Shown: piece after piece, positions 6,426-31,700 of the stretch
How the letters are laid out: the number at the start of each line of letters is the position of its first letter
Numbering within the stretch: position 1 is the first letter of the stretch
DNA from: an uncultured Candidatus Poseidoniales archaeon
GTDB taxonomy: Archaea > Thermoplasmatota > Poseidoniia > Poseidoniales > Thalassarchaeaceae
Direction of reading: 5' to 3'
DNA: 64,000 nucleotides
Assembly (NCBI GenBank): GCA_964013425.1
Contig: CAXGWC010000002.1
Span: 22,818 to 86,817 of the forward strand
The notes under the pieces: model-generated
The model's database searches: none
What the model was told of the DNA's origin: nothing
What the model saw: the letters and a program-made list of their open reading frames with translations, nothing else
Made by a program: the position numbers and the translations under genes

Positions 6426-6457
6426 TCGTCGTGCGGGCACTGGAACGTGAGTTTCTA

Positions 6458-9400
6458 ATGAAGAACAACAAGATGATTGCAATGATGCTTACCATGAGCA
6501 TGCTGGCGGCAGCTTTCGCCGGATGCCTTGGTGGGGATGATGAAGACGACACACCTGACTGGTCCATTTCGATGGCTAGTGACGTTAGTGCCGACTTCGT
6601 GGAGTCCGCATGGGACCCCATCATTCCCAACCTGAATGCCGGCGATATGTGCGACGCTATCATATCGGCGATGACGAAGACTGACGAGCGAGAGCAAGTT
6701 GTCGACTTCACCAGGGCCTACTACACAAGTAGCCAGGGTGTAATCGGCGGATCTGGCGCCGCTTCCATCAGTGCCGTCGCAGACCTGAACGCAGAAGGAA
6801 CCACCATAGGCGTACAATCGGGGACCACCTCGGATCTGTATGCTCAGAACAACCTAGGTGCAGCTACGATCAGTGCTTACGACGACTTCCCTTCGGTAAT
6901 CGCCGCTTTGAACAATGGCGATGTACACTATGCAATGGGTGACGCCCCAGTTCTGTCCCTGGAAGGTACCTTGATGGTCACCTTCTCGGATGAGAACTTC
7001 GGTATGGCTGTGCAGGGGGATTCCTCTGGAGAGCTACTTGGCGCTCTGAACATGGCAATTGGTGCCTTGGTCGACTCAGGTGAGTACGACCTGATCTATG
7101 GTGCCAGTTTCGATGGCGCAGTAACACTAGCCGATGACACCACAATGGATACAGCTACTTCCTACCCAGTACCAACTGAGGGAAGCGACCTGACCGCAGT
7201 TCTGGAGTCCGGAAGCCTAAGGCTTTGCACAGACCCGTTCTACCCTCCATTCGAGAGCTATGCTGACGATGGATCAGTAGTCGGATTCGATGCTGACATC
7301 GCTCATGCCGTAGCAGACGAGATAGCTGCTCACTACATGGGGGCAGCAAACCCAATGTTCGTTCCACCTGTCGTGGAAGAGCCAGCCGTGACAATCAAGC
7401 TAGGATTCTTGAATGACGCAACAGGGCCAATCGCTCAGTTCGCCGCTCCATTCACCTTTGCTTGGGGAGCCGCAATGGATGATCTAAACGCAATGGGAGA
7501 CGACTACGTCTTCGAGGTAATCGAGGCAGACTCCGGATGCGATGGCCAGATGGCCGGTACAGCAGCTCAGTCCCTCGTGGACGCTGGAGTTGTCGCAGTG
7601 GCTGGAGCCGCTTGCTCCGGAGCATCAATGGGTGCTAACGCAGTCCTTTCGGCTGCTGGAATCCCCATGATATCCTACGCCAGCACATCCCCAGCTCTGA
7701 GCGACGCAACCGCGTACCCTCACTTCTACAGGATCGTTCCAAGCGACGCTCTGCAAGGACAGGCAGCAGCTGACATGATCATGGCAAGCGGGGTTTCCAA
7801 CACCGCTGTCGTGCACATGACCAACGCTTACGGTGCAGGTCTAGCAGACGCAGTAGCGCTCAACCTGGGCGAGGACAACGTCTGCCTGCAGGCAGGATAC
7901 GAGGAGACAGCAACCGATTTCCAGGGCGCCGTTCAGGCAGTCATGGACGCAGGCTGTGACTCGGTCTTCCTAGGGTCCTACTCCGCTGACGGAGCCACGA
8001 TAGTCGAGACCATGGCAGTCATGGGTGCAACAATACCGATTTTCAGCGCTGACGGAATGGCCGGAGAGGCTGCTCTAGCAGACTACACCAACCCAGCAGC
8101 CGCAAACGGAATCGAGGTAACAAGGCCCAGAGCCGCAGCAGCAGGCGCTGGAGTTTTCGCAGCCGCATGTGCTGACGACCCTGTCTGCTCCACTGGAATC
8201 TTCACTTCTGAGGCGTACGATGCAGTAATGATGATCGGTCACGCAGCAATGATGGAGGACGGAGAGAACATGGGTACGCATGTACCCATGGTAGGCGACG
8301 CATATGCTGGAGACAGCGGTACTCACACCTTCTTGGACAACGGAGACGTTGGAGGATCAGGCTACGATGTCTGTACCTTCGCTCACGTACCAACCTTTGG
8401 AGAGTACTTCAACTGCGACAGGATGTGGGAAGCCGGAGGAGCCGGAGTAACTGCAGCACCATTCATGGGAGCTACAATCAAGATCGGATTCCTGAACGAC
8501 GCCACTGGGCCTATCGCCGTGTATGCAAACGGATTCGTTGCGGCATCACAGATCGCTCTAGGTCTAGCCAACACAATCGGATACAGTAACAATGTCCAGT
8601 TCGAGATAGTCTACGCAGACTCTGGTTGCGACAGCACCATGGGTGGCGCAGCCGCCCAGACACTGGTAGACGCTGGAGTATGGGGAGTCGTTGGAGCAGC
8701 CTGCTCCGGCGCATCCATGGGAGCCAACGCGGTGCTATCCGCAGCTGGAATCCCACAGGTATCCTATGCCAGCACAAGCCCAGCACTGTCTGATGCTACT
8801 GCATACCCATCCTTCTACCGCGTCGTACCAAGCGATGCGTTCCAGGGATCGGTAGTTGCAGAAGTAATGACAGCTGATGCACAGGACAACGTCGCAGTCA
8901 TTCACATGACCAACGCGTACGGATCAGGACTAGCAGACGCCTTTGTCGCCAACATGGACTCGGCAAGCATTTGCACACAAATTGGATACGAGGAGACAGC
9001 TACTGACTTCTCCACAATCGTGAGCACGGTCGTCAATGACGGATGTACCTCAGTAATGATGGTCTCATACGCCGCTGATGGAGCTATGCTAATCGAGGAG
9101 ATGTCTCTACAGGGATTCACCGGAGCCATCTATGGCGCTGATGGAATTGCCGAGGTAGGACTAGCAGCCGATATGGCTGACAAGTCCTTGGTCGATGGCG
9201 TAATCGCCACAAAGCCTGCAGCCGCAGGCGGAATGACCACTGTAGGCATGGTCTTTGCCGCACAGTGCATGGCAAACCCCGACTGTGCTGGAGGAATCTA
9301 CACTGCAGAGGCGTTCGACGCTGTCTACATCGTGGCTTTCGCCGCCTTCACAGCCCTAGCCACCCCTGGCATCACGCCAGACATGGCAATCGCTGGGACT

Positions 9401-9562
9401 GGTAACGGTCTAGAAGGAGCCAGTGGAGGAATCACCTTCATGGCAAACGGAGACGTTCCAGCAGCTGGTTTCTGTATCGGGGAGTTCTCTCACGATGCAA
9501 CCACAGACACAGTCTCATACGACTGTGCCAGGAACTGGGACCCAGTCAACGGAATCGTTTGA
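6458..9562 (+). CDS. livK: three-domain solute-binding lipoprotein: partial/permuted SBP type-3 module + two tandem LivJ/LivK-type branched-chain amino-acid-binding domains
   Basis: Signal peptide with lipobox-like AAFAGC. Residues ~60-230 resemble polar-amino-acid SBP family 3 (AIISAMTKTDEREQVVDFTRAYY). Two paralogous type-I LivK-like domains follow (IKLGFLNDATGPIA...GAACSGASMGANAVLSAAGIP...YPHFYRIVPSD, and again IKIGFLNDATGPIA...YPSFYRVVPSD). Start set at the internal ATG (MKNNKM). Confidence 0.8.
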   Translation: MKNNKMIAMMLTMSMLAAAFAGCLGGDDEDDTPDWSISMASDVSADFVESAWDPIIPNLNAGDMCDAIISAMTKTDEREQVVDFTRAYYTSSQGVIGGSGAASISAVADLNAEGTTIGVQSGTTSDLYAQNNLGAATISAYDDFPSVIAALNNGDVHYAMGDAPVLSLEGTLMVTFSDENFGMAVQGDSSGELLGALNMAIGALVDSGEYDLIYGASFDGAVTLADDTTMDTATSYPVPTEGSDLTAVLESGSLRLCTDPFYPPFESYADDGSVVGFDADIAHAVADEIAAHYMGAANPMFVPPVVEEPAVTIKLGFLNDATGPIAQFAAPFTFAWGAAMDDLNAMGDDYVFEVIEADSGCDGQMAGTAAQSLVDAGVVAVAGAACSGASMGANAVLSAAGIPMISYASTSPALSDATAYPHFYRIVPSDALQGQAAADMIMASGVSNTAVVHMTNAYGAGLADAVALNLGEDNVCLQAGYEETATDFQGAVQAVMDAGCDSVFLGSYSADGATIVETMAVMGATIPIFSADGMAGEAALADYTNPAAANGIEVTRPRAAAAGAGVFAAACADDPVCSTGIFTSEAYDAVMMIGHAAMMEDGENMGTHVPMVGDAYAGDSGTHTFLDNGDVGGSGYDVCTFAHVPTFGEYFNCDRMWEAGGAGVTAAPFMGATIKIGFLNDATGPIAVYANGFVAASQIALGLANTIGYSNNVQFEIVYADSGCDSTMGGAAAQTLVDAGVWGVVGAACSGASMGANAVLSAAGIPQVSYASTSPALSDATAYPSFYRVVPSDAFQGSVVAEVMTADAQDNVAVIHMTNAYGSGLADAFVANMDSASICTQIGYEETATDFSTIVSTVVNDGCTSVMMVSYAADGAMLIEEMSLQGFTGAIYGADGIAEVGLAADMADKSLVDGVIATKPAAAGGMTTVGMVFAAQCMANPDCAGGIYTAEAFDAVYIVAFAAFTALATPGITPDMAIAGTGNGLEGASGGITFMANGDVPAAGFCIGEFSHDATTDTVSYDCARNWDPVNGIV

Positions 9563-9575
9563 TTGGTAACGTAAA

Positions 9576-9620
9576 GCAGTGCGGCGGGGGTTTCCCGCCG
9601 CACTGCCCCAACAATTTTAT
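9576..9620 (+). terminator. intrinsic-type terminator hairpin followed by a T-rich tract
   Basis: Perfect 13-bp GC-rich inverted repeat GCAGTGCGGCGGG-ggttt-CCCGCCGCACTGC (9576-9606), then ccaacaattttatt, 14 nt after the SBP stop. Confidence 0.55.
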
Positions 9621-9646
9621 TCAAATCATGAAGGTACGTGTAGTAG

Positions 9647-12600
9647 ATGCTGCATGAGGCTCGGCACAAGTACTCGGATCTCTCTAGGGGAACACGAAGG
9701 ATACTAGTTGCAACAATACTTTTTCTAGATGCCAACTTACTCGGAACCTCAAACGGGATAGGATTACTCAACATTGTCGATACAATTCTTGGCGGGGGGA
9801 TCCCTGACGATATGGTATGGCTCCTCCAGGTTGTAGAGTCTCTAACAGCCGGATTCATAATCATCAAGGTATTTTTTGATGATGTTCCTCAAGGTAATTT
9901 CAGAACCATAGCCTTACTCACATCCCCGTTATTCATGATCCTGGTCACTTTCTTGACTCTCGACATCCTTCTCAGTGGGCTTGGAGAGGGAGCATCCTTC
10001 ACTCTGGATCTAGTTTCAGTAGCTACAGGCACTCTGACTTGGTCCTCGACTTATCTGGCAATTGCCATAGGACTCACTCTAACTTACAAGGTCCAGAGGT
10101 ATGGGAACTTCGCCCAATCTGAATTATTCATGATCGGGATGTATCTCTCAATGATAATGATCTGGAGTGACTACTTCTTCCCTCTTTCCAGTTTAAGCAC
10201 CACTAAAGACGGTGTTCTAACTTGGTCAGTCCTAATCTTCACACTCATCGCCGCATTCGTTCTTACGGGTCTAGCTGGAGTAATCATTGACAGATTGGTC
10301 TACAGGGGATTCCGAAGGACAAAGACCACTCCCCAGGTCATGATGATCGCTTCTCTGGGTGTCGCCCTAATACTGAGGGCCATCACTTACCTAAGATTTG
10401 GCTCTGGAAGAAATATGTTCGAGCCAGAAGGAGACTGGAGGATGCCAAATCTAAGGTGGGAGATACCAACCACCAAGCTCAGACTCAATCTCGGAGATAG
10501 GTCGATAGACGAGGGCAGGACCTATACTCAGTGGACATGCGAGCAGACAGGTGTGGACGAAACAACCGGAGAGCCTATACTGTCTAGAATAGTGACTGAA
10601 GCGTCAAAACCAGCATATGAACTGTATGATACTACTGCAGACTGCGTAACACAGGCTACCACCAACTACGCGTATTACAAGGGGGCAGTACCATTCGTAA
10701 TCTTCTCATCGGTACTCCTGCTGATGCTCCTACTCAACAAGACAAGGCTTGGCAGAAGAATGAGGGCGGTTGCTGATAATCCAGAGCTTGCCGCCAGTAG
10801 CGGAATCAACGTTGAGAGGGTTCACCTTTCGAGTGCTTTCCTGTCCGCTGGAATATCTGGGATGGGTGGTGCGATATTCGCAATGACGCTCAGATTCAGT
10901 CCAGAGACTGCTTTCACCCTACTCCTCCCTTCATTCGCAATCATTGTACTAGGTACAATTGGTTCCATTCCAGGGGCCATTGTGGGCTCCATCATCGTAG
11001 GGTTCGTACGAGCACTCTCATCTCCTGTACTGATTGGCATAGGATCACCACTCGGACGATCTAACTACTCTGCTTTGGACGGTGTCATGCCCTATATTTT
11101 CCTAGTTGCAATCCTAATGATAATGCCCGAGGGGATTGGAGACGCATATGAGAAGTGGAAGATTGACAGACTCCGCAATAAGAAGGAGACCAATACGGAA
11201 AGGGATGTCAAGATTGCCACTGGCTTAGCACTCCTCCCCACTGGAATCTTCGGATTGCATCACTGGTGGAGGGGCAGAACACACAGGATGCAAACATTCT
11301 CTGTGATCGCCATTGCCTCATACGTATTCCACAGATTCAGCAATTTTGTTGAAAGGAACTCCTTCGCCGACGGCTCTTGTGCTGACTCCTGCCAGGAAAG
11401 CGAGTTTGCTGAAACCAATTTGGCAATACTGACCGGAAGGAACGACGGAGAGCTAAAACTGGAGGATAGCCCTCTGACGGAGACCCATCTGTTGGATCAG
11501 ACTAGCGCCCCCAGTGGAATGACTCCTTTCGAAACCGAACAATGGATCCCAGACGCCCTGGCCGATATGCGACAGTCCTGGCTCAATCAAATGAAATTTG
11601 AGATCGATCTTGTCAACTTTATTGCTGACGCAGGAGATTTGATTTGGCCACTAGCATTACTGGTACTCTGGGCATTCTCTGTGTATGAAGGAATCAGGAT
11701 AATGAATGGCAAGGAGAATGAGAAAATATCATTCCCACTATTCTCCAAATGGAAATCCATCTTCGACTCAACTACCTCTCCAATATCAGATACTAGGCAA
11801 AAATTATCAGAGCTGGACAGGAATCATGAAAGAATAGTTAAACAACTGAGGGAGAAATTGAGTAATTATCTCAAAACCGGAGAGTTGAAGTCCCACGCCA
11901 TAGATTTCTCACTCAGATTCACTGAACCAGTAATGAAGGCACTCAAAATTCCAGAGAGTCGTAAGACAGAACTAAAGTTGTACGGAAGACAGAGTCCAAT
12001 AGGGTCTTGGATATCATTCTTCATCCTCATAACGATCTTAGTGATGTTTCTTGTTTGGCTTCCAATAGCCGAATCGGACAATTTTGAATTTAAGAAAGTC
12101 CTCCAGGTATCGAATGTATTACTCACACTCTCTATCTTCATTTTGATGGCCTTTTCTCTAAACTTACATACCGGGTATACTGGAATGGTAAATTTCGGAA
12201 TCATCTTCTTCGTCTCTGTTGGAGCGATAACAGTCTCAATATTAACCGCTCCAGAAAGAGTGTTCGGATATAATTGGGGGATTTTAGAGGCCACAATAGT
12301 AGCTATGATACTATCCGCCGCCATCGGTTGGCTACTCGCCTATCCTACTGCCAGATTGAGGACAGACTACTTTGCCATAGTGACCATATCGCTTGGAGAA
12401 ATCGTAAGAGTTCTCTTAGCAGGAGAACCACTTTTGAGAGCGGGGCCGGTTGCTTCTGCAATTGGGATATCAGGATACCCACTACCATTGGAAGACTGGT
12501 GGTTCTGTGGCTCGGAGAAGTCCGGTCCAGATACACAGTGGGCCAGTCCCGATGCCTGCAGAGATGACATATTGTTAGACAGCACCCCGGCGTACTACAT

Positions 12601-13384
12601 AGGTGAGCTACTGAATCTTGGCGAACCGGCTCCCTATATGATGATGCTAATGCTATTATCAGTGGCTTCAGTCATAGTCGTGTGGGCACTACTATCCAGA
12701 CTACTCTCATCACCATGGGGGAGGGTACTCAAGGCCATCAGAGAAGACGAGGAAGTCGCCCAGCACCATGGCCACGACATCTTGACTCACAAGGCGGCAA
12801 GCCTCGCTCTGGGGGCTGCAATAGCTGCACTTGCTGGAGCACTTTGGGCTTGGAAGCTAACTGGTTTCGACGCGAGTTTCATGTCTCCTGCGCGCTCTAC
12901 ATTTTTAGTATGGGCCGCCTTCATTATTGGAGGTACATCCAATAACAGGGGTATGATTGTCGGGGCCTTCATCATAGTTCTTATGGAATTCGTATTCAAC
13001 GTCCTAGTAGCGGCACAGGGTTCTTCAGATCTGCCACTACATGTTACCGCTAACAGAATAGACACTCTATTCGAGTGGATAATAACAAATCAATGGGATG
13101 TAGCCACTATATTCGCTATTACGGCTCTTGTGGGTTACATTACCAGATCAGAGAGGGTTTTCGATATTGGTTTTTCAGGAGCAACAATATTCCTCTTCGC
13201 CGCACTTGCTCTTGGTGAGAGATCCATCAATGAGTCGTTCTTCGCAGGGGTTGTTAGTGCGGATATGGTTTATGTCAAGCTCATGCTGATTGGGTGCCTA
13301 ATGCTGTTCTCACTCAAATTCAATTCCAAGGGCCTATTGCCAGAAGTCCCGATCAGACCTAGTAGACCAGACGGAGGCGAATAA
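9647..13384 (+). CDS. livHM: fused LivH-LivM branched-chain amino-acid ABC permease (1245 aa) with a ~300-aa internal linker
   Basis: LivH-like LVYRGFRRTKTTPQVMMIASLGVALILRAI in the first half; LivM-like ARLRTDYFAIVTISLGEIVRVLLAGEPLLRAGP in the second half. The linker has a TM2-like GLALLPTGIFGLHHWWRG segment and a CADSC motif. True start uncertain. Confidence 0.8.
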   Translation: MLHEARHKYSDLSRGTRRILVATILFLDANLLGTSNGIGLLNIVDTILGGGIPDDMVWLLQVVESLTAGFIIIKVFFDDVPQGNFRTIALLTSPLFMILVTFLTLDILLSGLGEGASFTLDLVSVATGTLTWSSTYLAIAIGLTLTYKVQRYGNFAQSELFMIGMYLSMIMIWSDYFFPLSSLSTTKDGVLTWSVLIFTLIAAFVLTGLAGVIIDRLVYRGFRRTKTTPQVMMIASLGVALILRAITYLRFGSGRNMFEPEGDWRMPNLRWEIPTTKLRLNLGDRSIDEGRTYTQWTCEQTGVDETTGEPILSRIVTEASKPAYELYDTTADCVTQATTNYAYYKGAVPFVIFSSVLLLMLLLNKTRLGRRMRAVADNPELAASSGINVERVHLSSAFLSAGISGMGGAIFAMTLRFSPETAFTLLLPSFAIIVLGTIGSIPGAIVGSIIVGFVRALSSPVLIGIGSPLGRSNYSALDGVMPYIFLVAILMIMPEGIGDAYEKWKIDRLRNKKETNTERDVKIATGLALLPTGIFGLHHWWRGRTHRMQTFSVIAIASYVFHRFSNFVERNSFADGSCADSCQESEFAETNLAILTGRNDGELKLEDSPLTETHLLDQTSAPSGMTPFETEQWIPDALADMRQSWLNQMKFEIDLVNFIADAGDLIWPLALLVLWAFSVYEGIRIMNGKENEKISFPLFSKWKSIFDSTTSPISDTRQKLSELDRNHERIVKQLREKLSNYLKTGELKSHAIDFSLRFTEPVMKALKIPESRKTELKLYGRQSPIGSWISFFILITILVMFLVWLPIAESDNFEFKKVLQVSNVLLTLSIFILMAFSLNLHTGYTGMVNFGIIFFVSVGAITVSILTAPERVFGYNWGILEATIVAMILSAAIGWLLAYPTARLRTDYFAIVTISLGEIVRVLLAGEPLLRAGPVASAIGISGYPLPLEDWWFCGSEKSGPDTQWASPDACRDDILLDSTPAYYIGELLNLGEPAPYMMMLMLLSVASVIVVWALLSRLLSSPWGRVLKAIREDEEVAQHHGHDILTHKAASLALGAAIAALAGALWAWKLTGFDASFMSPARSTFLVWAAFIIGGTSNNRGMIVGAFIIVLMEFVFNVLVAAQGSSDLPLHVTANRIDTLFEWIITNQWDVATIFAITALVGYITRSERVFDIGFSGATIFLFAALALGERSINESFFAGVVSADMVYVKLMLIGCLMLFSLKFNSKGLLPEVPIRPSRPDGGE

Positions 13385-15501: not shown

Positions 15502-15930
15502 TCAGCTAAACTCCAACCCAAGTAGCTCAAGACCATCAAGAGGGCGTCGAGTCATAATCGCATCCTCCATCAATCTAAGATGTATTTCTGCAACAACATG
15601 CACTGTCGACTGAAACATATGGCCAGCATGAACGTTATTGTCGTCATCAGACCAGCAACAGTGGATATGGGTGAAAGGATCCCCATGTTCTGTACGTGCG
15701 ATATTACCCGACAAGCTCACTAACTCTGATGGTGAGTCCAAGGGCCTCCTTTGGTAAACACCCTCCGCATCCATGTAGCCATATTGGTTGTCACGGGTTC
15801 TCCCGATCCCACTGGTTATCACCGCTGCATCAAATGCAAGGTCATTCGCCAATGCCTTCAGTGAGGCATGAATCTCCTCTCCCGGGTCTAGCCGTACTAG
15901 GACATCATTACCCGAACGCGTATGTTCCAT
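15502..15930 (-). CDS. PPC (DUF296) domain protein
   Basis: 142 aa; pattern LDPGEEI...AVITSGIGRT...HIHCC typical of PPC/DUF296. Confidence 0.5.
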   Translation of the reverse strand: MEHTRSGNDVLVRLDPGEEIHASLKALANDLAFDAAVITSGIGRTRDNQYGYMDAEGVYQRRPLDSPSELVSLSGNIARTEHGDPFTHIHCCWSDDDNNVHAGHMFQSTVHVVAEIHLRLMEDAIMTRRPLDGLELLGLEFS

Positions 15931-16003
15931 GCCCCTCCTATCACAAACATTGATTTCAACTTCTCTAAGGAATTTTCCACTATCGGCAAAAAATCATCGT
16001 CAT

Positions 16004-16015
16004 TCCAGTGGAAGA
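16004..16015 (+). repeat. ORB-like element 1 (TTCCAGTGGAAG)
   Basis: Matches the archaeal mini-ORB core TCCAGTGGAA. Confidence 0.5.
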
Positions 16016-16053
16016 GCTAAATGCCCCAAAATGACTTTGAAAAAGAAAAAAAT

Positions 16054-16065
16054 CTCCACTGGAAC
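16054..16065 (-). repeat. ORB-like element 2, inverted (TTCCAGTGGAGA on minus strand)
   Basis: Reverse complement of element 1 across an AT-rich spacer. Confidence 0.5.
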
Positions 16066-16139
16066 AAAAGGGGTCAACATTACCATACATTTTGGTTATA
16101 GACCGTGACTTCCCGTATCATGTGCCCGGCGGTTAGAAG

Positions 16140-18317
16140 ATGACGATGGCTACTCATGATTCGGCCGCAAGATGGAAGACCTTTCTCTCTGAGGCCAAGG
16201 AGCATGATATCACACTCCTTCTGTCAAAGCAAACTACTAGTCACACGGTTTCGGTATCATTCCATGAGTTGACCGGATTCGATCCAGATTTCGCAGAGGA
16301 TATCCTGAGCAACCCCCGTAGTATAATATCCAGTGGTCACAAGGTATTGAGCGAAATTTGTAGAGATAGAGGAGAGGATCTGGATGCAAGGGTCATACTT
16401 TCTGATCTTCCAAGAGATACCCTAAGCCCACTCAGAGATATAGGATCTAGAGATATAGACAAATTGAGGAGCTTAGACGTTATAGTAACAAAAATGTCTC
16501 AATTGAAGCCTAGGATACATGTTGCTGTCTTCGAGTGCGAATCCTGTGGTAACTCCCAACAGATAGATCAGATCAACGAAAGTGAATTGATTGAGCCGTT
16601 GAGATGCCCAGAGGCCACTGGATGTGGACGTTCAATCAGAGGAAATGACTCGACTAGATTCAACTTAGTATTGAATAGCTCACGGATGATAAACAACCAA
16701 TGGCTGGAGATTCAAGAGCTACCTGAGAATGTACCTAGTGGGGCACAACCTTCTCGGGCCAACGTGCTACTGGAAGGCGACCTAGTCAACAAGCACCTTC
16801 CCGGCCAAAGAATCACTGCAAATGTGATTCCTGTTGTCAGGTCCGAAATAAAGAGAAACAAGAAAACTCCAATGTTTGATATCGTATACCAAATGATTAG
16901 CTCTAGACACGAGAGTGTTCCTTTCACTGAGATTAAGATAAATGACGAGGAAAGAGAGCAAATCGAAGAGATTGCTGCATCGGGGGAATTATTGACTCTT
17001 ATGCAGAAATCTATAGCTCCATCAATATTTGCAAATGACAAGCTCAAGCTAATCAAAAGATCCCTCGCACTCCAGCTATTTGGAGGAGTAAGAAGGAAAA
17101 CCGCTGATGATACGTATCTAAGGGGCGACATCCATATTCTACTGATGGGAGACCCTGGTGTTGCCAAGTCTCAGCTTCTCGGATATATGTCGAATATCTC
17201 TCCCAGGGGAAAGTTTGCTTCAGGGGGAGGGACTTCAGGCGCCGGCTTAACTGCGGCAGCAATCAGGGACTCCTTTGGAGATGGTAGGTTTGCCTTGGAG
17301 GCGGGAGTCCTCCCTCTCTCAGACAGAGGATTAGCGGCTATTGATGAGTTTGACAAAATCTCTCCAGACGATCGGAGCGCCATGCATCCTGCGATGGAAC
17401 AACAGAAGATTTTCGTCGCAAAGGGAGGAATAACAGCGACCCTACCCTCTAGATGTGCGGTCCTCGCAGCGGCAAATCCGAAAGACGGGAGATTCTCAAA
17501 TAGGAATGAAAGGACCTCAATAATGACCTCATTCAAAGAGACTGACTTGCCTTATCCACTAGCATCTAGATTTGACTTACTATGGTTAATCAGAGATGAT
17601 ACTGAAAAGTCCACTGACACTAAAATAGCAACGCATATACTCGACATAAGAAGCTCATCACCGAGTGAAATGAGCCTACAGGATCTACCCTTTGAACCCT
17701 CTGAGACAGACGAAGGAGAGGTATTTGGTATCGGAGTCGATGGAGACAAACACCTAACGATGGATTTTCTTAGAAAATACGTGGCATACGCCAAGAGAAC
17801 GTTCTTCCCGCAATTAAATGATAAGGCAAAATTGATGATTTCGGATTACTATGTTCAAGTCAGGAATGAGACCGCCGCGCTAGATAGGTCTCCAGGAGAG
17901 TATGAGGGCGATGGGGACAAGGATAGACCGATTCCGATCACTGCTAGGGCTATAGAAGCACTAATTCGACTTACCGAAGCACATGCTAGAATGCATCTGA
18001 AACACACGGCAGATGAAAATGATGCTAAGATGGCCCTGGCCGTCTACAAGCATTGGAGAGAGGACTCAAACATTGAGGATGAGTCAGAAATTCACTCTGG
18101 AGTTTCGGCATCAAAGAGGAATATCGACAGGAACATTAGGAAAATCATTAGAGGTATTTGTATGGAGAGAGGTGGAACTGCAGATATAGACGAGATTTAC
18201 AACAGGGCTACTGATTTGGGGATTAATGAAGGACAGGTTGATGGAGTGATTTCCTCAATGAGTATCAGTGGGGAAATTTTCTCTCCTCGAGGAGGAACGT
18301 ACTCTTTCGTCCGTTGA
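16140..18317 (+). CDS. mcm: minichromosome maintenance (MCM) replicative helicase
   Basis: Zn-finger CESCGN...C, Walker A GDPGVAKSQLL, Walker B IDEFDK, arginine-finger region SVLAAANP. 725 aa, no intein-sized insertion. Confidence 0.92.
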   Translation: MTMATHDSAARWKTFLSEAKEHDITLLLSKQTTSHTVSVSFHELTGFDPDFAEDILSNPRSIISSGHKVLSEICRDRGEDLDARVILSDLPRDTLSPLRDIGSRDIDKLRSLDVIVTKMSQLKPRIHVAVFECESCGNSQQIDQINESELIEPLRCPEATGCGRSIRGNDSTRFNLVLNSSRMINNQWLEIQELPENVPSGAQPSRANVLLEGDLVNKHLPGQRITANVIPVVRSEIKRNKKTPMFDIVYQMISSRHESVPFTEIKINDEEREQIEEIAASGELLTLMQKSIAPSIFANDKLKLIKRSLALQLFGGVRRKTADDTYLRGDIHILLMGDPGVAKSQLLGYMSNISPRGKFASGGGTSGAGLTAAAIRDSFGDGRFALEAGVLPLSDRGLAAIDEFDKISPDDRSAMHPAMEQQKIFVAKGGITATLPSRCAVLAAANPKDGRFSNRNERTSIMTSFKETDLPYPLASRFDLLWLIRDDTEKSTDTKIATHILDIRSSSPSEMSLQDLPFEPSETDEGEVFGIGVDGDKHLTMDFLRKYVAYAKRTFFPQLNDKAKLMISDYYVQVRNETAALDRSPGEYEGDGDKDRPIPITARAIEALIRLTEAHARMHLKHTADENDAKMALAVYKHWREDSNIEDESEIHSGVSASKRNIDRNIRKIIRGICMERGGTADIDEIYNRATDLGINEGQVDGVISSMSISGEIFSPRGGTYSFVR

Positions 18318-25123: not shown

Positions 25124-28100
25124 ATGGTTGATTCTAGGAGGGACTCGATGGAGCCGAATGTGGACTCAATTACAATTGAAGAGATACCTGTTGGAGCAAT
25201 TCCCAACTGGCTCTTCGATCATTTCGTCGACCAGGCAATAGATCCTAGGCCCGTTTCCAAAGGGGGCCCTTCGAAAGTCCTAACAATATACTCCAATGAG
25301 AACAGTAGAAGACAACACATGTCTATGCTCAGCAACATAGGTTTCGCTTTCGACAGGACCCTCCACCATACTCTGGAGTCACTCAAGTCCTCCCTAATGG
25401 CGGACCTGAGGATCCCGAGAAAAATCTCTTTAGGACCTTCCTTCGACTTAGTACTGCATAATTTATGCTCAGAAAGAGCATCGGATCTTTCCTTCCCACT
25501 GATCAATCCTCTGCCTAATATGCATTGGGGGGAGGGGAAGACTACTGCTCTCTCAGAGCTACACACTTTCCTCTCAAAAGAGTCCTCAACAGCCTCATGG
25601 GATGGTCCAGGAATGCACTCTTTCAGAGAGATTCTAAGAGACATTGAATCGAAGACGGGAGGAACTCATCCTGATTTTCTGACATCTAAGATACTGGAAG
25701 GTATTGAATTCGTTGAAACTCCTTTCACACTACTGGATATTGATGGTATTATCATGCTAGATCATGCCTCTCCCATCAACAAGTCAGATTCGGAACTACT
25801 CACTGCTCTTTCCAAAATTCGCCCCATTCATCAATTAACATATCCAGGGAGTTACAGGCTTGGATTTCACGGGTTTCAACTGGTGGATGATTTCCCTATA
25901 ACAGATACAGACGATTTGCCAGAATGGATTCCCAGACATGAAATATCCAACCACAAAAATGCCCCAACTGTGAATAGGGTTTTTGTTAATAGAGAGGAAC
26001 AGTCTTTTGAGGCCTCTATTTCGATTGCCAGAGGCTTTCTATCAGAGGAACCCAATTCAACAGTCCTAATCATCGATCCATCATTTGAAGAAAATCAAAC
26101 CAGATGGAGCAAAATGATACATGATTTGGGACTGCCCGTATCTGGACTAAAGAAACCCATAATACATTCACCATTAGGCCACTGGTTACATGAGTTGGCT
26201 AAAATTGGAAACGGCTCTAACTCTTTCTCAATGGATAAGCTAAGATTGTTGGCCTTACAGGAATCGCTCTCCCCTTTTTCTCCTTTCCACAATGAAGATA
26301 ACACCAATGATATTTCACCTCATCCCGATATAGAGCTACTATCTCAAATTGCAAGGTCAGAGCACATTCTAGGAGGACCAGGCGCTTTAGAGAGGTGGAT
26401 GGAGGCTCTATGCAGGCCCTCCAAGAAAGACGAAAAGGGCCCCGCACGTGAATCAACTCAGTGGTGGATGATCGCACTCGTATCGTCAATACTTCCACTT
26501 CTAGATAAGACAGATAGAGAACTTCTATCAAATCAAAGACTTCTCACAGGATGCCACTCCGGAAAACTTCTCGAAGTGCCCAACTCGCCATCTACTGGGG
26601 ATGAGTGGCTCGCTAGAACTTTTCAACAAATAGACACCGCTATCACAATTGACTCTCTGGATGGAAACGCAATACCAATATCGTCCATAATAAAGGCAAT
26701 CACATCTGAGCACGAGTCCTTGAGGTCACTGCAAAGATCAGTCGGACAGCCTCCTCCTGCAGGAGGGTCAGAATGGGTATCAGAGCTATCATCCATACTC
26801 AAGACCGCTTCTCTTCCGGTTCCGGTATCAGGCATCAGCTCAAGACTAAGAGTCATGGCGCCAAAAGACGCTCTTGGTTGCAACTCAGACATAGCTATAC
26901 TGGCAAATACATCAGCACCCTCATGGAATCTCAGATCGCCAAAAATACCCTTCATAGGAGAAATGGAGAGACACAAATTCGAGCTTCTGAGGCCAGACGT
27001 TCCTATTACCAAGGCACGTCATCACCTGTATCACATTCTCAATTGCTGTAGTAAAGTGATTTTGATAGACCCCAGCTTGGATAAGTCCACACCTCTAGCA
27101 CCTCCCTTGGAGGAGATCTTAGCTTACTGTACCTCACCAGTCCACTTCGATCCAAACTCCGAGGAGAATCTCGGCCCTAGGGACATTAAGCAACTTGATG
27201 GAATACTACTCCGAAACATGAAGAATTCAAGCAATCCACCCCTCAATCCCAGTGCGATTACCATTCCCCTCGATGTAGAGCTTCAGAGGGATAGGGAGAG
27301 AAGGCAACCTAGCAAGGCTGACTCAGAAGGATACCTTCCAGCCGAATATAGAAACAGGGTTATTTTGTTCGACTACGACGATTTGACAAGAAAGACTCCA
27401 GAGGGAGTAGAAAATCCTCGTAATTCTACTATTTGGCCAGTCATTGGAGCCACCAGTAGCGACGGGAAGAACTCCGTAACCATTGATCCCAGACCATTTA
27501 CTCCGATACCGTCCGGTTCAGCTGTATCGGATAGCAGACATGGCCATTCAGACGGCGCCAATCAGGAAATACAACTATGGTCTCCAAGCAGGCTTCAAGA
27601 ATGGGCTATGTGCCCTCGAAGAGGATGGCTATCAAGAGGACTCAGAATTAGAGAGGAAGAGACACAGAGCGAAGATCTTGATCCGAGAATCCATGGGGAC
27701 CTCCTTCACCAGGTACATCACGATCTTATTTGTGAGGTCCTAGGCATGCAAGAGCAAGTGGAAAGGGACATATCAGGAGCTCTAGAGGGGCATTTTCCCA
27801 CCAATATAGCCGATTCGGGCTTAGAAGAGCAAGACATCATGCAGAAGGCCCTCGAAATCCTTGACAAACTAGCACCATGGCTGGAACGATCTGATGGTGT
27901 TTCCACCTTTAGACTCAGAATGCTCACCGGTATGTCACACATTGAATGGAAAGACTGGCTGGCCAACCCAGTCAGGGCCCCGCTAGGAGGTAGAATAGGA
28001 GCAATGATAAGATCAGAAATGCAACTTTCAGACTCAATGCCCATTGCGTTGGAATGGGAAATTTCTAATGGTTCAGAGACAGGCTCAGAAATTTCTCTGA

Positions 28101-28729
28101 ATCAAAATGAAACCAGTCCAAATCAGATAGAATTGCCTTCCATAATGATCAATGGAAAGATAGACAGGGTGGATATAATTCCATTCGACAAAGAAGGCAA
28201 TGAATGGATTAATGATGACGGATCAATTGAGATAGCGCCATTAAGACTCTTCGAAAAGAATGACTGGAAACCTCGTAGAAGAGTGATTATCAGAGATTTG
28301 AAGACTTCAGAGAAAAAGCCTTCAGATAGGAACAAGGAAGGCCTTCTTAACGAACTTCAATTGGCAATTTATTCCAGAGCATGGGAGATCAACCACCCAG
28401 GAGACTTGGTCGTGGGGGCTGGTATCTCAACCATTGGGCACTCCACAGAACATCTCGTTGAGCCTTCAGCCAACCATCGATCAGAATTAGAATCACTTTC
28501 AGTAGGAACGACCACCTCTCTGACCACCAGATTGCATAGATTCCCAGACGAATCCACCAATCCCAAGAGTGACCCCTTCAGAGCATGGATGGCCCAGCGA
28601 CTTTCAGTTGCATTAGGGGTTGCTAATGGGGCCGTTGAAGGTAGAGTACACCCAACTCCATCCAAATCAGCATGCAGATACTGCCCAGTGAGTAGTATAT
28701 GCGCAGTCAAAATGGAGGATGACTACTGA
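25124..28729 (+). CDS. addB: AddB/RexB-like nuclease subunit: degenerate N-terminal helicase-like region + C-terminal RecB-family nuclease with Cys cluster
   Basis: C-terminal nuclease motifs in AddB order: SPSRLQEWAMCPRRGWL, HGDLLHQVHH, GKIDRVD, IIRDLKTSEKK, QLAIYS, then CRYCPVSSIC (AddB-type Fe-S staple). N-terminal region has no canonical Walker A (KGGPSKV) or helicase motifs. Stop overlaps the start of the downstream helicase gene. Confidence 0.65.
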   Translation: MVDSRRDSMEPNVDSITIEEIPVGAIPNWLFDHFVDQAIDPRPVSKGGPSKVLTIYSNENSRRQHMSMLSNIGFAFDRTLHHTLESLKSSLMADLRIPRKISLGPSFDLVLHNLCSERASDLSFPLINPLPNMHWGEGKTTALSELHTFLSKESSTASWDGPGMHSFREILRDIESKTGGTHPDFLTSKILEGIEFVETPFTLLDIDGIIMLDHASPINKSDSELLTALSKIRPIHQLTYPGSYRLGFHGFQLVDDFPITDTDDLPEWIPRHEISNHKNAPTVNRVFVNREEQSFEASISIARGFLSEEPNSTVLIIDPSFEENQTRWSKMIHDLGLPVSGLKKPIIHSPLGHWLHELAKIGNGSNSFSMDKLRLLALQESLSPFSPFHNEDNTNDISPHPDIELLSQIARSEHILGGPGALERWMEALCRPSKKDEKGPARESTQWWMIALVSSILPLLDKTDRELLSNQRLLTGCHSGKLLEVPNSPSTGDEWLARTFQQIDTAITIDSLDGNAIPISSIIKAITSEHESLRSLQRSVGQPPPAGGSEWVSELSSILKTASLPVPVSGISSRLRVMAPKDALGCNSDIAILANTSAPSWNLRSPKIPFIGEMERHKFELLRPDVPITKARHHLYHILNCCSKVILIDPSLDKSTPLAPPLEEILAYCTSPVHFDPNSEENLGPRDIKQLDGILLRNMKNSSNPPLNPSAITIPLDVELQRDRERRQPSKADSEGYLPAEYRNRVILFDYDDLTRKTPEGVENPRNSTIWPVIGATSSDGKNSVTIDPRPFTPIPSGSAVSDSRHGHSDGANQEIQLWSPSRLQEWAMCPRRGWLSRGLRIREEETQSEDLDPRIHGDLLHQVHHDLICEVLGMQEQVERDISGALEGHFPTNIADSGLEEQDIMQKALEILDKLAPWLERSDGVSTFRLRMLTGMSHIEWKDWLANPVRAPLGGRIGAMIRSEMQLSDSMPIALEWEISNGSETGSEISLNQNETSPNQIELPSIMINGKIDRVDIIPFDKEGNEWINDDGSIEIAPLRLFEKNDWKPRRRVIIRDLKTSEKKPSDRNKEGLLNELQLAIYSRAWEINHPGDLVVGAGISTIGHSTEHLVEPSANHRSELESLSVGTTTSLTTRLHRFPDESTNPKSDPFRAWMAQRLSVALGVANGAVEGRVHPTPSKSACRYCPVSSICAVKMEDDY

Positions 28730-31700
28730 TGATTCCCAATACCGCTCAACGCCTCGCGCTAAACTTGGATTCACATATTGTAATCGATGCTGGAGCCGGG
28801 ACAGGAAAGACCAAGACCATCATCGATAGAGTGATTGAGCACTATCTCTGTGGAGATCAAAGGGCCACTAGGATACTCCCAGTCCCAGAAAGACCCCCTC
28901 CACCAAGAGGAGGGATCCTAATTTCCCCCTCTTCGGAGACGGTAGCTCCCAAGGATCACCCCGGGCTTCTCCCTGGAGAGGTAGTTCTGCTAACGTTCAC
29001 CAACAAGGCGGCAGATGAGATGAGGCATAGGTTGAGGGATGAGATATTGAAACTGAGAATGGGCTCCTCTTCGGTCTCCGAACAGAATAGAGCCGATCCA
29101 AGAGTAACCCATCCCGGCCTTCCTGAGCAGCTTCTAACCCTTCTGGAGGACGCCCCAATAGGTACCATAGACTCCTTCTTCAATCAATTAGTCTCTCCTT
29201 ACAGAGGATTCCTAGGAGATGCTCTCAGCAGGGAGAATATTTCTGATGCAAGCAGGATACTACTTATCGAAGACGCACTCGATACACTTTGGCGGCTTCC
29301 AAGCTCAATCTCTGGTCTAGGAGATGCAGTCGATGCAGGTATTCCAGCAGAGATAGCGTCAGATGTCCTCAAAGCCAGAGAGAGAATAGCTAGGAGATAC
29401 TCTGGTAGGAAGACCGCAGCTAGGCTACTCCGCGGTCTTGTTAGGAAATCCGTCTTCATCGAGGAAGGACTCAGGAGAATCACTGATAAGAACGGCCATG
29501 TAGACCCCCTACTACTCAGGGAAAGAATCCTATCTACAACTGATAGGAAACTAGTCGAGTCAATGTGTTCGAGGATAAATGAAAGTAGTGAGAGATATTG
29601 TGAAATCATCCTTGGATCTCCTGAAATGGTAGCTGGGGGCATTCCCCAAGAATCGAGAATGGCCTGTCTGTTAGCACTAAATAAACAGAATCCGTCTGAT
29701 ACATGGGGACAATTAGTATGGCTTGCGCATCATCTAGATTGCACCACAAGTGCGCCAACAGTTCAATCTGGTTCTCCAACCATATTTCCCAGACAAAATA
29801 TTCCTGATGACAGCCATTGGCCGAGAGGGGTAAAGTCTTGGAGCGCAATAAAGGACAAGCACACCAAGGAATCTACCAAAGAAGCACTAAACTTGGAAAT
29901 AGATAGAATCAGGAACGCATGGACCGACTCTACTGGTTCCCTGACTCTCCATTTTGCTCAGATTGCAATGCTTCTAGACTCGGCATCCCCTCCCTGCTCA
30001 CCTCCCTCTCGTGGAAAATCCCTGTCCCCCTTGCCAGACACCATCCCAGATAGGCTTCCTCAAGGAGAAAAATCAGAGAGATACTATTTCACCATAGAAG
30101 CAGAAGCTGGGAATCTGGATGATCTCAGGCTAGCACATCTGGGATTCAAAGGTATTCTGAAAAGAATGAAGGAAAGAGAAGAGGTCCACGACTTCGATGA
30201 TATACAGGCCTTAGCAGGCGACCTACTACTTTCCAAGTGCCCAGAAGTGTGTCGTAAATACTACCCCCAAGAGGTAATTAGAGAACTGGATTCCATAGGC
30301 GATGAACCTTGGAGAGACGATCATATCCTGGCTGCGTTAAAGCAGATATCCACATTAGAAAATAACCCAAAGTTAGCAGGAGAATCAATATCCGAATTAA
30401 CAGCTATCAGATCAGATCTGGAAAGGAGACACGATCTTCTCAGGACCATTCGAAGGAGATTCAGGGCATTCATCATTGACGAGGCACAGGATAACTCACC
30501 TCTCCAATGGAGGCTTCTTTCCAGACTCTGGGGAGAGAGGAGCGTCCTGGAGGGGGAGATTCCAACCCCAGATACGCCATGGCAACCCACTGTGTGCTAC
30601 GTTGGCGATGTCAAGCAGAGCATCTATGCTTTCAGACAGGCCGAGGTGGTCGGATTCCTTGAATATGCTAGAACACTGATGGCAATAAATCGTCACGAAT
30701 TCTCCAGTATCCAGTTATTACGACAAAAACCAACACTAAGAAAGATCGACAGTAGCAGGGACCCAAGAAATGCACATCTAGTGGGAATCAAACAGGCAAA
30801 GACACTGACTCGCTTATCTGGAATTGATACGACACCATGGGTTCCTTTCGATCTTCCAGATAGAGGACGTATCCCAGAGCCCGAGGAAATCGATAGAAGG
30901 AGGAACGGATTAATCCGACTAAATGTTAACTATCGTACCAAGGGAGGGCTTTTAGAAGCAATGAATCACTGGTGGGATGATGTGTTTTCAGACAGGCACA
31001 AAGACTTCCCAAGAGGAGATTTCTACGCTACATCACAACCCTTGCGCCCGTCTGAGGAAAACTCAGACTCGGCTGGTTCGATTGAATGGATATGCCCCGT
31101 ACTAAATGGCGGGGATGATGATGCTCCAGAAGATCTCACCGCTCCAATAGACTCGTTCGGTTTCGGAAAGCCGAACTCGATCGAAAGGCAGGCGATGCTA
31201 ATCGCACTGAGGGCCAAAAATTTGATCAAAGGAGAGCCAATAAGGGTTCTCTCATCATCAGGAAAGTGGAGCGAGCTACCGGCAGAAGAGCCAATCGCTC
31301 CGAGTGACATAATGATTCTCCTTCCGAGCAGGAGTAAGCTGAGAGATAGCATAATGAGAGAGCTCTCAGTTGTTGGTGTCCCTGCTCAGGCCGACAGGGA
31401 AGGAAGCCTCCTACAACGTCCGACCGCACACGCCCTCGATGGCCTACTACAGCTATTGGCAAGGCCCGACTCTCCCCATCACGCTGCATGGGTGGCAAGG
31501 TCTTCACTAATTGGCCTCGATGACAGACAACTTCAGAAATTCATTGGGGACTCATCTCGAGGGGAAGATATGCTAGCTAGATTACGAGATTTTACAGCAA
31601 ATGACAGGCATAAAGAAATGATAAAAAGATGGGAGATTCTCTCTAGGTCTAGCAGATTAGTCGAAGCTCTTAACGAGACATTGGATAGATCGGACCTATT

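What the first reader, a model, noticed from the sequence alone, without database searches (positions are those of the whole stretch)
15931..16139. Candidate replication origin with inverted ORB-like repeats directly upstream of mcm
The 209-bp gap between the PPC gene and mcm contains TTCCAGTGGAAG and an inverted TCCACTGGAAC about 40 bp apart, flanking an AT-rich stretch (taaatgccccaaaatgactttgaaaaagaaaaaaa). A degenerate third copy (ttttccactatcgg) lies upstream. The TCCAGTGGAA core matches the conserved archaeal origin-recognition-box half-site bound by Orc1/Cdc6, and inverted ORBs flanking a DUE is the canonical oriC layout. Placement next to the replicative helicase gene rather than an orc1/cdc6 gene would be notable. 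No orc1/cdc6 gene is in this window.
Basis: partly seen in the sequence, partly recalled or inferred. Interest (0 to 1): 0.7.

Follow-up and report, generated by a model that had tools for sequence, protein, structure and literature searches.

The report
Initiator-binding boxes upstream of helicase gene
Two binding boxes for the archaeal replication initiator sit just upstream of the replicative helicase gene in nearly all marine Group II archaea examined, but nothing else there looks like a replication origin, so they more likely let the initiator control the helicase gene.

Summary
The 209-bp gap between a PCC-domain gene and mcm holds a mini-ORB (16003-16014) and a full origin-recognition box with G-string (CTCCACTGGAACAAAAGGGGT, 16054-16074).

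The full-ORB pattern occurs once in the window, against 0 in 100 shuffles. It recurs about 86 bp before the mcm start in 74 of 76 lineages of Poseidoniales (Marine Group II), where MCM identity falls to 60%. The 40-nt spacer length is constant. A conserved TATA-like block follows Box B.

The origin reading is not supported:
- The spacer is not consistently AT-rich (GC at or above the locus GC in 23 of 74 lineages), and other gaps in the window are more AT-rich.
- A strong strand asymmetry at four-fold sites keeps one polarity across about 84 kb. It does not flip at the site, here or in five relatives.

No orc1/cdc6 gene lies nearby. In MGIIb relatives the Orc1-1-type gene has no ORB pair within 10 kb.

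Best reading (0.5): a non-origin Orc1 docking element built into the mcm promoter. A minor or dormant origin remains possible (about 0.27). Closed genomes, coverage profiles and Orc1 binding assays would decide.

The parts
16003..16014 (.). Box A: mini-ORB dyad TTCCAGTGGAAG, without a G-string
   Evidence: Conserved about 137 bp before the mcm ATG in relatives as T[C/G]CAGT[G/A]GAAG. In L010 it carries a G-string on its left side.
16014..16053 (.). 40-nt spacer between the boxes. Its length is constant; its sequence and AT content are not.
   Evidence: 40 nt in all 74 lineages. Mean GC is 0.417 against a locus mean of 0.493, and it is at or above the locus GC in 23 of 74. Only a weak central 'CTG' is conserved.
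16054..16074 (+). Box B: full ORB CTCCACTGGAA-CAAAA-GGGGT (dyad plus G-string), with the G-string pointing towards mcm
   Evidence: Only match in the window, 0 in shuffles. About 2 bits per position in 34 dereplicated lineages. It accounts for 80 of 85 loose-pattern hits in 1.45 Mb of Poseidoniales loci. It matches published ORB consensus sequences.
16086..16109 (+). Conserved promoter-like block (consensus tCCa.TtTGtTcATAGACCgtga; TATA-like core TTATAGA at 16096-16102), starting 12 nt after the G-string
   Evidence: Searches show invariant columns T.ATA..C. Its identity as the mcm BRE/TATA is inferred from position, about 25 nt before the conserved GCCCGG block. It was not tested.
16124..16139 (+). 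Conserved GCCCGGCGG(T)GA block: likely transcription start plus a Shine-Dalgarno-like sequence before the mcm ATG
   Evidence: A similar GCCCG..GGTGAAAGAAAATG block precedes orc1 in MGIIb relatives. The role is inferred.
16140..18317 (+). mcm (replicative helicase) gene
   Evidence: Pfam MCM_OB, MCM and MCM_lid. 99% identical to MAG UBA463.
15502..15930 (-). Divergently transcribed PCC/PPC-domain (DUF296) gene. It is the conserved left neighbour of the ORB pair.
   Evidence: Pfam PF03479. The same neighbour appears in same-species contigs and in distant relatives.
15973..15986 (.). TTTTCCACTATCGG: a half-site remnant at the position where one MGIIb clade has a degenerate third dyad (TTCCnnTGGG, 33 bp before Box A)
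   Evidence: The window has 3 mismatches to the dyad. 13 of 34 lineages have 2 mismatches or fewer, against 5.3 expected.

Best explanation
The gap holds a conserved pair of recognition sites for the Orc1-1-type replication initiator: a full ORB (Box B) and a mini-ORB (Box A) five helical turns upstream. The pair is built into the divergent PCC/mcm promoter region.

Proposed mechanism:
1. Orc1 binds Box B with its winged helix on the dyad and its AAA+ domain on the G-string. This is known from Orc1-ORB crystal structures of homologues and is inferred here.
2. That places Orc1 directly upstream of the mcm BRE/TATA, about 60 bp before the presumed transcription start.
3. A second Orc1 sits on Box A, on the same face of the helix.
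4. Occupancy would follow Orc1 abundance and ATP state. It would then raise or lower mcm transcription, and perhaps transcription of the PCC gene, tying helicase supply to initiator status.

Shown: ORB identity, order-wide conservation, fixed phasing to the promoter block, absence of origin hallmarks. Inferred: Orc1 binding, the TATA and start-site assignment, and any effect on transcription and its direction.
For: - Box B equals the ORB consensus including the G-string.
- Boxes A and B are the only strongly conserved non-promoter blocks in the gap across 34 dereplicated lineages.
- The pattern is essentially confined to this one site in 1.45 Mb of relatives.
- The distances Box A to Box B (51 bp), Box B to the TATA-like block, and that block to the ATG keep their length while the sequence between them drifts. 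This is what protein-protein phasing at a promoter predicts.
- Poseidoniales encode an initiator closest to A. pernix ORC1 (2V1U, 304 bits) and S. solfataricus Orc1-1 (2QBY_A, 278 bits).
- Origin hallmarks are missing. There is no conserved AT-rich DUE. There is no strand-skew flip here or in five other lineages. Only two boxes sit in a 209-bp gap that also holds two promoters.
- Precedent: Sulfolobus Orc1/Cdc6 ChIP-seq shows multiple non-origin sites and altered transcript profiles in orc1 mutants (PMC3607249).
Against: - No binding or expression data exist for these uncultured organisms.
- In Pyrococcus abyssi, Orc1 bound essentially only oriC in vivo, and isolated mini-ORBs were not bound (PMC1904270).
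- No other replication gene in the window (for example polB at 53122) has an ORB upstream, so there is no sign of a regulon.
- The pair geometry, with the G-string pointing away from the spacer, is the same as at a true origin (Metallosphaera oriC1 control).
- MGIIb orc1 loci have no ORB pair of their own. This leaves the mcm site as the only ORB cluster found in the order.
- The replication origin of the strand asymmetry is inferred, not proven.
Confidence: 0.5

Rival explanations
1. It is a working replication origin, main or secondary, whose initiator gene has moved elsewhere. Orc1 on Boxes A and B would load MCM onto the spacer or flanks next to the helicase gene.
For: - Canonical ORB sequence, with paired sites whose G-string points away from the spacer, as at Metallosphaera oriC1.
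- The 39-47 bp spacing of predicted ORB pairs in Methanomassiliicoccales is similar.
- Order-wide conservation.
- No ORB pair within 10 kb of orc1 in four MGIIb lineages.
- The spacer is AT-rich in this genome.
Against: - The strand term of four-fold-site GC skew has the same sign on both sides: rL -0.176 +/- 0.035, rR -0.112 +/- 0.022. Flip-model RSS is 111 against 56.
- Polarity is uniform over about 84 kb, and five other lineages show no flip.
- The spacer is GC-rich in 23 of 74 lineages, and its AT content is no greater than the flanking gap DNA.
- 40 nt is much less than the 130-bp ORB3-DUE-ORB2 unit of Sulfolobus oriC1.
- The gap is not the most AT-rich one in the window.
- A rarely used or dormant origin would escape the skew test.
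Confidence: 0.27
2. It is a non-origin Orc1 reservoir that titrates the initiator or modulates its ATP state, in the manner of the bacterial datA and DARS loci, without acting on mcm transcription.
For: Conserved high-affinity-type ORB outside an apparent origin. Non-origin Orc1 sites exist in Sulfolobus.
Against: - Only two sites, which gives little titration capacity.
- The strict phasing to the mcm promoter block is not explained by a pure sink.
- No archaeal precedent was found in the papers searched.
Confidence: 0.08
3. The dyads are the operator of a different transcription factor, for example one encoded nearby, and only resemble ORBs.
For: Palindromic 9-mers at fixed distance from a promoter are typical operators. 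The neighbouring PCC-domain gene is conserved in synteny.
Against: - The invariant, asymmetric GGGGT exactly 5 nt after the dyad is an ORB-specific feature that a dimeric palindrome-binder would not need.
- As far as I know, the PCC domain is not a sequence-specific DNA binder. This rests on my own knowledge, not on a tool result.
Confidence: 0.1
4. It is a chance occurrence without function.
For: Single dyads occur elsewhere in the window inside genes.
Against: The full pattern appears in 0 of 100 shuffles. It is conserved at the same offset in 74 of 76 lineages, down to 60% MCM identity.
Confidence: 0.02

Closest known systems
Archaeal oriC1-type origins (ORB-DUE-ORB; Sulfolobus oriC1, Pyrococcus oriC, Metallosphaera control locus L104)
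   Same: Same recognition element (dyad TCCAnTGGA plus a G-string). Paired boxes with the G-string distal to the intervening DNA. Located beside a core replication gene.
   Different: - The intervening DNA is 40 nt, against roughly 110-130 bp, and is not conserved as AT-rich.
- No ucm motif (ATTATACAAAC), which is present in L104.
- Only one full ORB.
- Not next to orc1/cdc6.
- No strand-skew switch.
Predicted ORB pairs of Methanomassiliicoccales (PMC4153887)
   Same: Same phylum (Thermoplasmatota). Same 5-nt dyad-to-G-string spacing. Pairs spaced 39-47 bp.
   Different: Those pairs flank orc1/cdc6.1 and consist of two full ORBs. That paper lists none near mcm.
Non-origin Orc1/Cdc6 binding and transcriptional roles in Sulfolobales (Orc1-1 and Orc1-3 ChIP-seq sites; Orc1-2 as DNA-damage regulator)
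   Same: An initiator-family protein bound at promoters outside origins, with effects on transcription.
   Different: The known regulatory case (Orc1-2) uses a paralogue that does not bind any origin in vivo, and a different motif according to my own recollection. Here a canonical ORB sits in front of the helicase gene and is conserved across an order.
Bacterial DnaA boxes in promoters (dnaA, nrdAB) and at datA
   Same: Works like: an initiator recognition box reused outside the origin to couple gene expression or initiator availability to the replication cycle.
   Different: Unrelated protein and motif. This is an analogy only, from my own knowledge.

Membership tests
Origin recognition box (ORB) element | Dyad-symmetric core TCCA-N-TGGA(A) | tested here: met
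   Box A TCCAGTGGAA and Box B TCCACTGGAA, conserved in relatives.
Origin recognition box (ORB) element | G-rich string (GGGGT) 5-6 nt after the dyad in full ORBs | tested here: met
   Box B has CAAAA-GGGGT, and GGGGT is invariant in the 25-sequence alignment. Box A lacks it, which makes it a mini-ORB. L010 is the exception.
Origin recognition box (ORB) element | A cognate Orc1-1-type initiator is encoded by the lineage | tested here: met
   P0309 family, named Poseidoniales/Thalassarchaeaceae Orc1/Cdc6. Best solved relatives are 2V1U and 2QBY_A. Shown for MGIIb relatives; the orc1 gene of this genome was not retrieved.
Origin recognition box (ORB) element | Bound by Orc1/Cdc6 | not testable with these tools
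   Needs EMSA, footprinting or ChIP.
Archaeal chromosomal origin (oriC, ORB-DUE-ORB) | Two or more ORBs in opposed orientation around the unwinding region | tested here: inconclusive
   One full ORB plus one mini-ORB. Polarity is defined only for Box B, and for both boxes only in L010.
Archaeal chromosomal origin (oriC, ORB-DUE-ORB) | AT-rich duplex unwinding element | tested here: not met
   Spacer GC is at or above the locus GC in 23 of 74 lineages. The flanks are equally AT-shifted, and other gaps in the window are more AT-rich.
Archaeal chromosomal origin (oriC, ORB-DUE-ORB) | Adjacent to an orc1/cdc6 gene (usual but not universal) | tested here: not met
   No Orc1 homologue in the window, 10 kb beyond either end, or within 10 kb of mcm in 80 relatives.
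Archaeal chromosomal origin (oriC, ORB-DUE-ORB) | Switch of strand compositional asymmetry at the site | tested here: not met
   rL -0.176 and rR -0.112 have the same sign. No-flip RSS is 55.6 against 111.3 for a flip. The extensions and five other lineages agree. This is limited to about 84 kb; no whole genome was available.
Archaeal chromosomal origin (oriC, ORB-DUE-ORB) | Replication initiates there in vivo (marker frequency, 2D gels, initiation-point mapping) | not testable with these tools
   Needs read-depth profiles on closed genomes, or experiments.
Initiator-operated promoter (non-origin Orc1 site) | Binding site at a fixed, conserved distance from the core promoter | tested here: met
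   The G-string ends 12 nt before the conserved TATA-like block. There are no length changes between Box B, that block and the ATG across lineages. The promoter identity is inferred.
Initiator-operated promoter (non-origin Orc1 site) | Expression of the downstream gene depends on the initiator | not testable with these tools
   Needs transcription assays.

The most novel reading that the evidence does not exclude
In Poseidoniales the ancestral link between oriC and orc1 has been broken. The initiator's only conserved recognition site lies at the promoter of the replicative helicase gene. It could act as a dual-purpose element: an Orc1-controlled mcm promoter that can also fire as a conditional or dormant origin, loading newly made MCM in cis.
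Probability: 0.2. Interest if true: 0.7.

Novelty: new variant of a known kind. Interest (0 to 1): 0.5.

Why it matters
Marine Group II archaea are among the most abundant archaea in the surface ocean and remain uncultured. Nothing on their replication origin turned up in the papers searched.

A canonical initiator box fixed to the helicase promoter across a whole order would be a clear sequence-level case for an archaeal Orc1-1-type initiator acting as a gene regulator. That idea has been raised from Sulfolobus ChIP-seq, and I found no defined target for it in the papers searched.

There is also a practical caution. Origin finders that call any ORB pair an origin would mis-place oriC in these genomes. 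That would mislead growth-rate estimates based on peak-to-trough coverage.

Tried and rejected
- Rfam scan of the window found only one tRNA and no RNA family in the gap.
- The sigma-70 promoter and terminator scan does not apply to archaea and returned nothing.
- Using a Haloferax plasmid Orc and then a metagenomic Orc1 as protein queries returned only haloarchaea and Sulfolobales. The Poseidoniales Orc1 was reached only through the 50%-cluster search plus cluster look-ups.
- A metagenome scan for perfect dyad pairs gave canonical orc1-linked origins of other archaea. Its only two Poseidoniales loci were both the mcm site (L152, L154).
- A viral-contig scan for the Box A/Box B module gave chance or coding-repeat hits only.
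- The Sulfolobus ucm motif is present in the Metallosphaera control locus but absent here.
- Plain GC skew in sliding windows simply follows gene orientation and was uninformative. It was replaced by a per-gene four-fold-site model.
- The third degenerate copy is not supported in this genome.
- An RNA-hairpin reading of the inverted repeat was not pursued. Each arm is itself a palindrome, and the orientation is not conserved.

Full report
WHAT IS THERE

The window comes from a Marine Group II archaeon (order Poseidoniales). Its MCM is 99% identical to that of MAG UBA463, and the 80 best relatives are all Poseidoniales or Thalassarchaeaceae MAGs.

The gap 15931-16139 separates a PCC/PPC-domain gene on the - strand (15502-15930) from mcm on the + strand (16140-18317). 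gatE follows mcm.

The gap contains TTCCAGTGGAAG (16003-16014, Box A) and CTCCACTGGAACAAAAGGGGT (16054-16074, Box B). The two ten-base arms are perfectly complementary.

After the dyad come five bases and then GGGGT, which is the G-string of a full origin recognition box. The published archaeal consensus is CTTCCAGTGGAAACGAAAGGGGT. The consensus for Methanomassiliicoccales, which belong to the same phylum, is GTTCCAGTGGAAATGG-AGGGGT, with the same five-base spacing (PMC4153887).

The pattern TCCANTGGAA-N5-GGGG occurs once in the window and in none of 100 shuffles.

CONSERVATION

In 74 of the 76 lineages with enough upstream sequence, both boxes are found at the same offsets. Box A lies about 137 bp and Box B about 86 bp before the mcm start. 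MCM identity in these lineages falls to 60%.

A loose full-ORB expression matches 85 times in 1.45 Mb of Poseidoniales loci, counting both strands:
- 80 matches are Box B.
- One is Box A of L010, which there carries its own outward-facing G-string.
- Four lie elsewhere.

Information content across 34 dereplicated lineages shows these conserved blocks:
- Box A.
- Box B, at nearly 2 bits per position including GGGGT.
- A block tCCa.TtTGtTcATAGACC that starts 12 nt after the G-string.
- A block GCCCGG.GGTGA just before the ATG.

The sequence between the blocks drifts freely, but the lengths do not change. The spacer is 40 nt in all 74 lineages.

I read the ATAGACC block as the mcm BRE/TATA. I read GCCCGG...GGTGA as the transcription start plus a Shine-Dalgarno-like sequence. 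Both assignments are inferences from position.

The central base of each dyad varies among lineages, so the 'inverted' orientation of the dyads is not a conserved property. The polarity given by the G-string is conserved.

IS IT AN ORIGIN?

Four tests were possible.

(a) Unwinding element.
- The spacer is AT-rich in this genome (GC 0.30).
- Across lineages its mean GC (0.417) is no lower than that of the neighbouring gap DNA (0.445 and 0.413).
- In 23 of 74 lineages it equals or exceeds the locus GC, reaching 0.62.
- Within the window, three other intergenic gaps are more AT-rich.
- Two controls from the metagenome scan look different. Metallosphaera oriC1 (L104) has about 110 bp of AT-rich DNA with the ucm motif between outward-facing ORBs. 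An unidentified archaeon (L159) has more than 250 bp of very AT-rich DNA next to orc1.

(b) Strand asymmetry.
- Sliding-window GC skew just follows gene orientation.
- I therefore modelled the GC skew at four-fold degenerate sites of each gene as a gene term plus a strand term.
- The strand term is large and negative on both sides of the site: -0.176 +/- 0.035 on the left and -0.112 +/- 0.022 on the right.
- A model with a flip at 16035 fits about twice as badly as one with no flip (RSS 111.3 against 55.6).
- The same polarity holds in the 10 kb beyond each end of the window. L208 gives -0.179. L209 gives +0.140 in reversed orientation, which is -0.14 in window orientation. That makes about 84 kb and roughly 80 genes of varied function.
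- Five other lineages (L042, L054, L076, L033, L013) also have the same sign on both sides of their mcm ORB site.
- That this asymmetry is caused by replication is an inference. It is independent of gene orientation and extends over a long range, which is what replication bias looks like.
- A main origin at the site is therefore unlikely. A rarely used origin cannot be excluded.

(c) Linkage to orc1. No Orc1 homologue lies in the window, in the extensions, or within 10 kb of mcm in 80 relatives.

(d) Is there a better origin at orc1?
- After two unproductive protein searches, a Poseidoniales Orc1/Cdc6 (P0309) was identified through the 50%-cluster library and cluster names.
- It is an Orc1-1-type initiator. 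Its best solved relatives are A. pernix ORC1 (2V1U, 304 bits) and S. solfataricus Orc1-1 (2QBY_A, 278 bits). Orc1-3 and the ORC2 and Cdc6 types score far lower.
- Four MGIIb orc1 lineages were fetched as six loci (L210-L213, L229, L230). L213 comes from the same MAG as mcm locus L042.
- They show a 400-bp gap upstream of orc1 with no ORB, and no dyad pair within 10 kb.
- The only near-match is an ORB-like string inside a coding region, which is explained at least partly by protein conservation.
- The strand term does not flip at orc1 either.
- So no alternative origin was found. This keeps the origin reading alive at reduced probability.

MOST LIKELY FUNCTION

The boxes are best explained as Orc1 docking sites that are part of the mcm promoter architecture.

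Box B places Orc1 immediately upstream of the presumed BRE/TATA. Box A lies 51 bp, or about five helical turns, further upstream. All the distances are length-conserved while the sequence between them is not. This pattern is expected for proteins that must touch each other or the transcription machinery. A pure origin does not require it.

Precedent exists. Sulfolobus ChIP-seq found multiple non-origin Orc1/Cdc6 sites, the mutants have altered transcriptomes, and the authors concluded that these proteins act in transcriptional regulation (PMC3607249).

Against this reading, Pyrococcus Orc1 bound essentially only oriC in vivo (PMC1904270). No other replication gene in the window carries an ORB.

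I put the regulatory or non-origin docking reading at about 0.5. The others are:
- A real but probably minor or dormant origin: about 0.27.
- A different transcription factor: 0.1.
- A titration locus: 0.08.
- Chance: 0.02.

NOVELTY

ORBs, mini-ORBs and non-origin Orc1 binding are all known. An order-wide conserved ORB pair fixed to the helicase gene promoter, in a lineage whose orc1 gene has no ORBs beside it, was not found in the literature searched. It is a new variant of a known kind. Interest is moderate. It gives a concrete, testable target for initiator-mediated gene control in archaea. It also warns against calling origins from ORB motifs alone.

LIMITS

- The orc1 loci examined are from MGIIb, whereas the window is from the other family (MGIIa).
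- Promoter elements are inferred from position and conservation only.

Noticed in passing
L213:15334-15352, L210/L229:15372-15390, L230:15362-15380 (- strand): About 4 kb downstream of orc1 in MGIIb relatives, an ORB-like string TCCAC[A/C]GGAAG-N4-GGGGT is conserved inside an 873-aa gene of unknown function. It encodes STG(S/R)(D/E)GVPW, so protein constraint may explain it. The L230 version is identical in form to some Box B variants.
   Followed up: partly
window 1-64000 plus L208 and L209: A strong strand asymmetry that does not depend on gene orientation: the + strand is C-rich at four-fold degenerate sites (strand term about -0.13 to -0.18) over about 84 kb. This suggests the whole region lies in one replichore and that this species has usable replication skew.
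   Followed up: partly
window 25124-33591: Two very large adjacent genes: 1201 aa with a PD-(D/E)XK nuclease domain, and 1620 aa with UvrD helicase plus PD-(D/E)XK domains. They resemble a bacterial AddAB-type helicase-nuclease pair in an archaeon. A bacterial-type NAD-dependent DNA ligase lies just left of the window (L208:1732-3843).
   Followed up: no
window 6431-13384: Unusually large fused ABC-transporter components: a 1043-aa protein with matches to three kinds of solute-binding domain, and a 1245-aa branched-chain amino-acid-type permease. Two ATPase genes follow.
   Followed up: no
window 8188-8198: A further perfect dyad (CTCCACTGGAA) inside the solute-binding protein gene, with only a poor G-string on the other strand. 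Its conservation was not checked.
   Followed up: no
L152:1630-3910: A Poseidoniales-like contig whose MCM is only about 50% identical to other Group II MCMs. Its neighbours are 64% (GatE) and 91% (PCC protein) identical. It keeps the box pair, and its Box B has G-strings on both sides.
   Followed up: partly
L092:603-654 and 2280-2331: A 2.4-kb metagenome contig with two perfect dyad pairs about 1.7 kb apart and no detectable Orc1 homologue between them. The layout resembles the ORB pairs flanking orc1 in Ca. Methanomethylophilus alvus.
   Followed up: no
window 16030-16040 and homologous positions in relatives: A weakly conserved 'CTG' (often C-CTGA) near the middle of the 40-nt spacer. Its position recalls the ucm motif midway between ORBs at Sulfolobus oriC1, but the sequence is unrelated.
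   Followed up: partly
window 15502-15930 and relatives: The PCC/PPC-domain (DUF296) gene is the conserved divergent neighbour of mcm across Poseidoniales and shares the box-containing gap. Its function is unknown.
   Followed up: no
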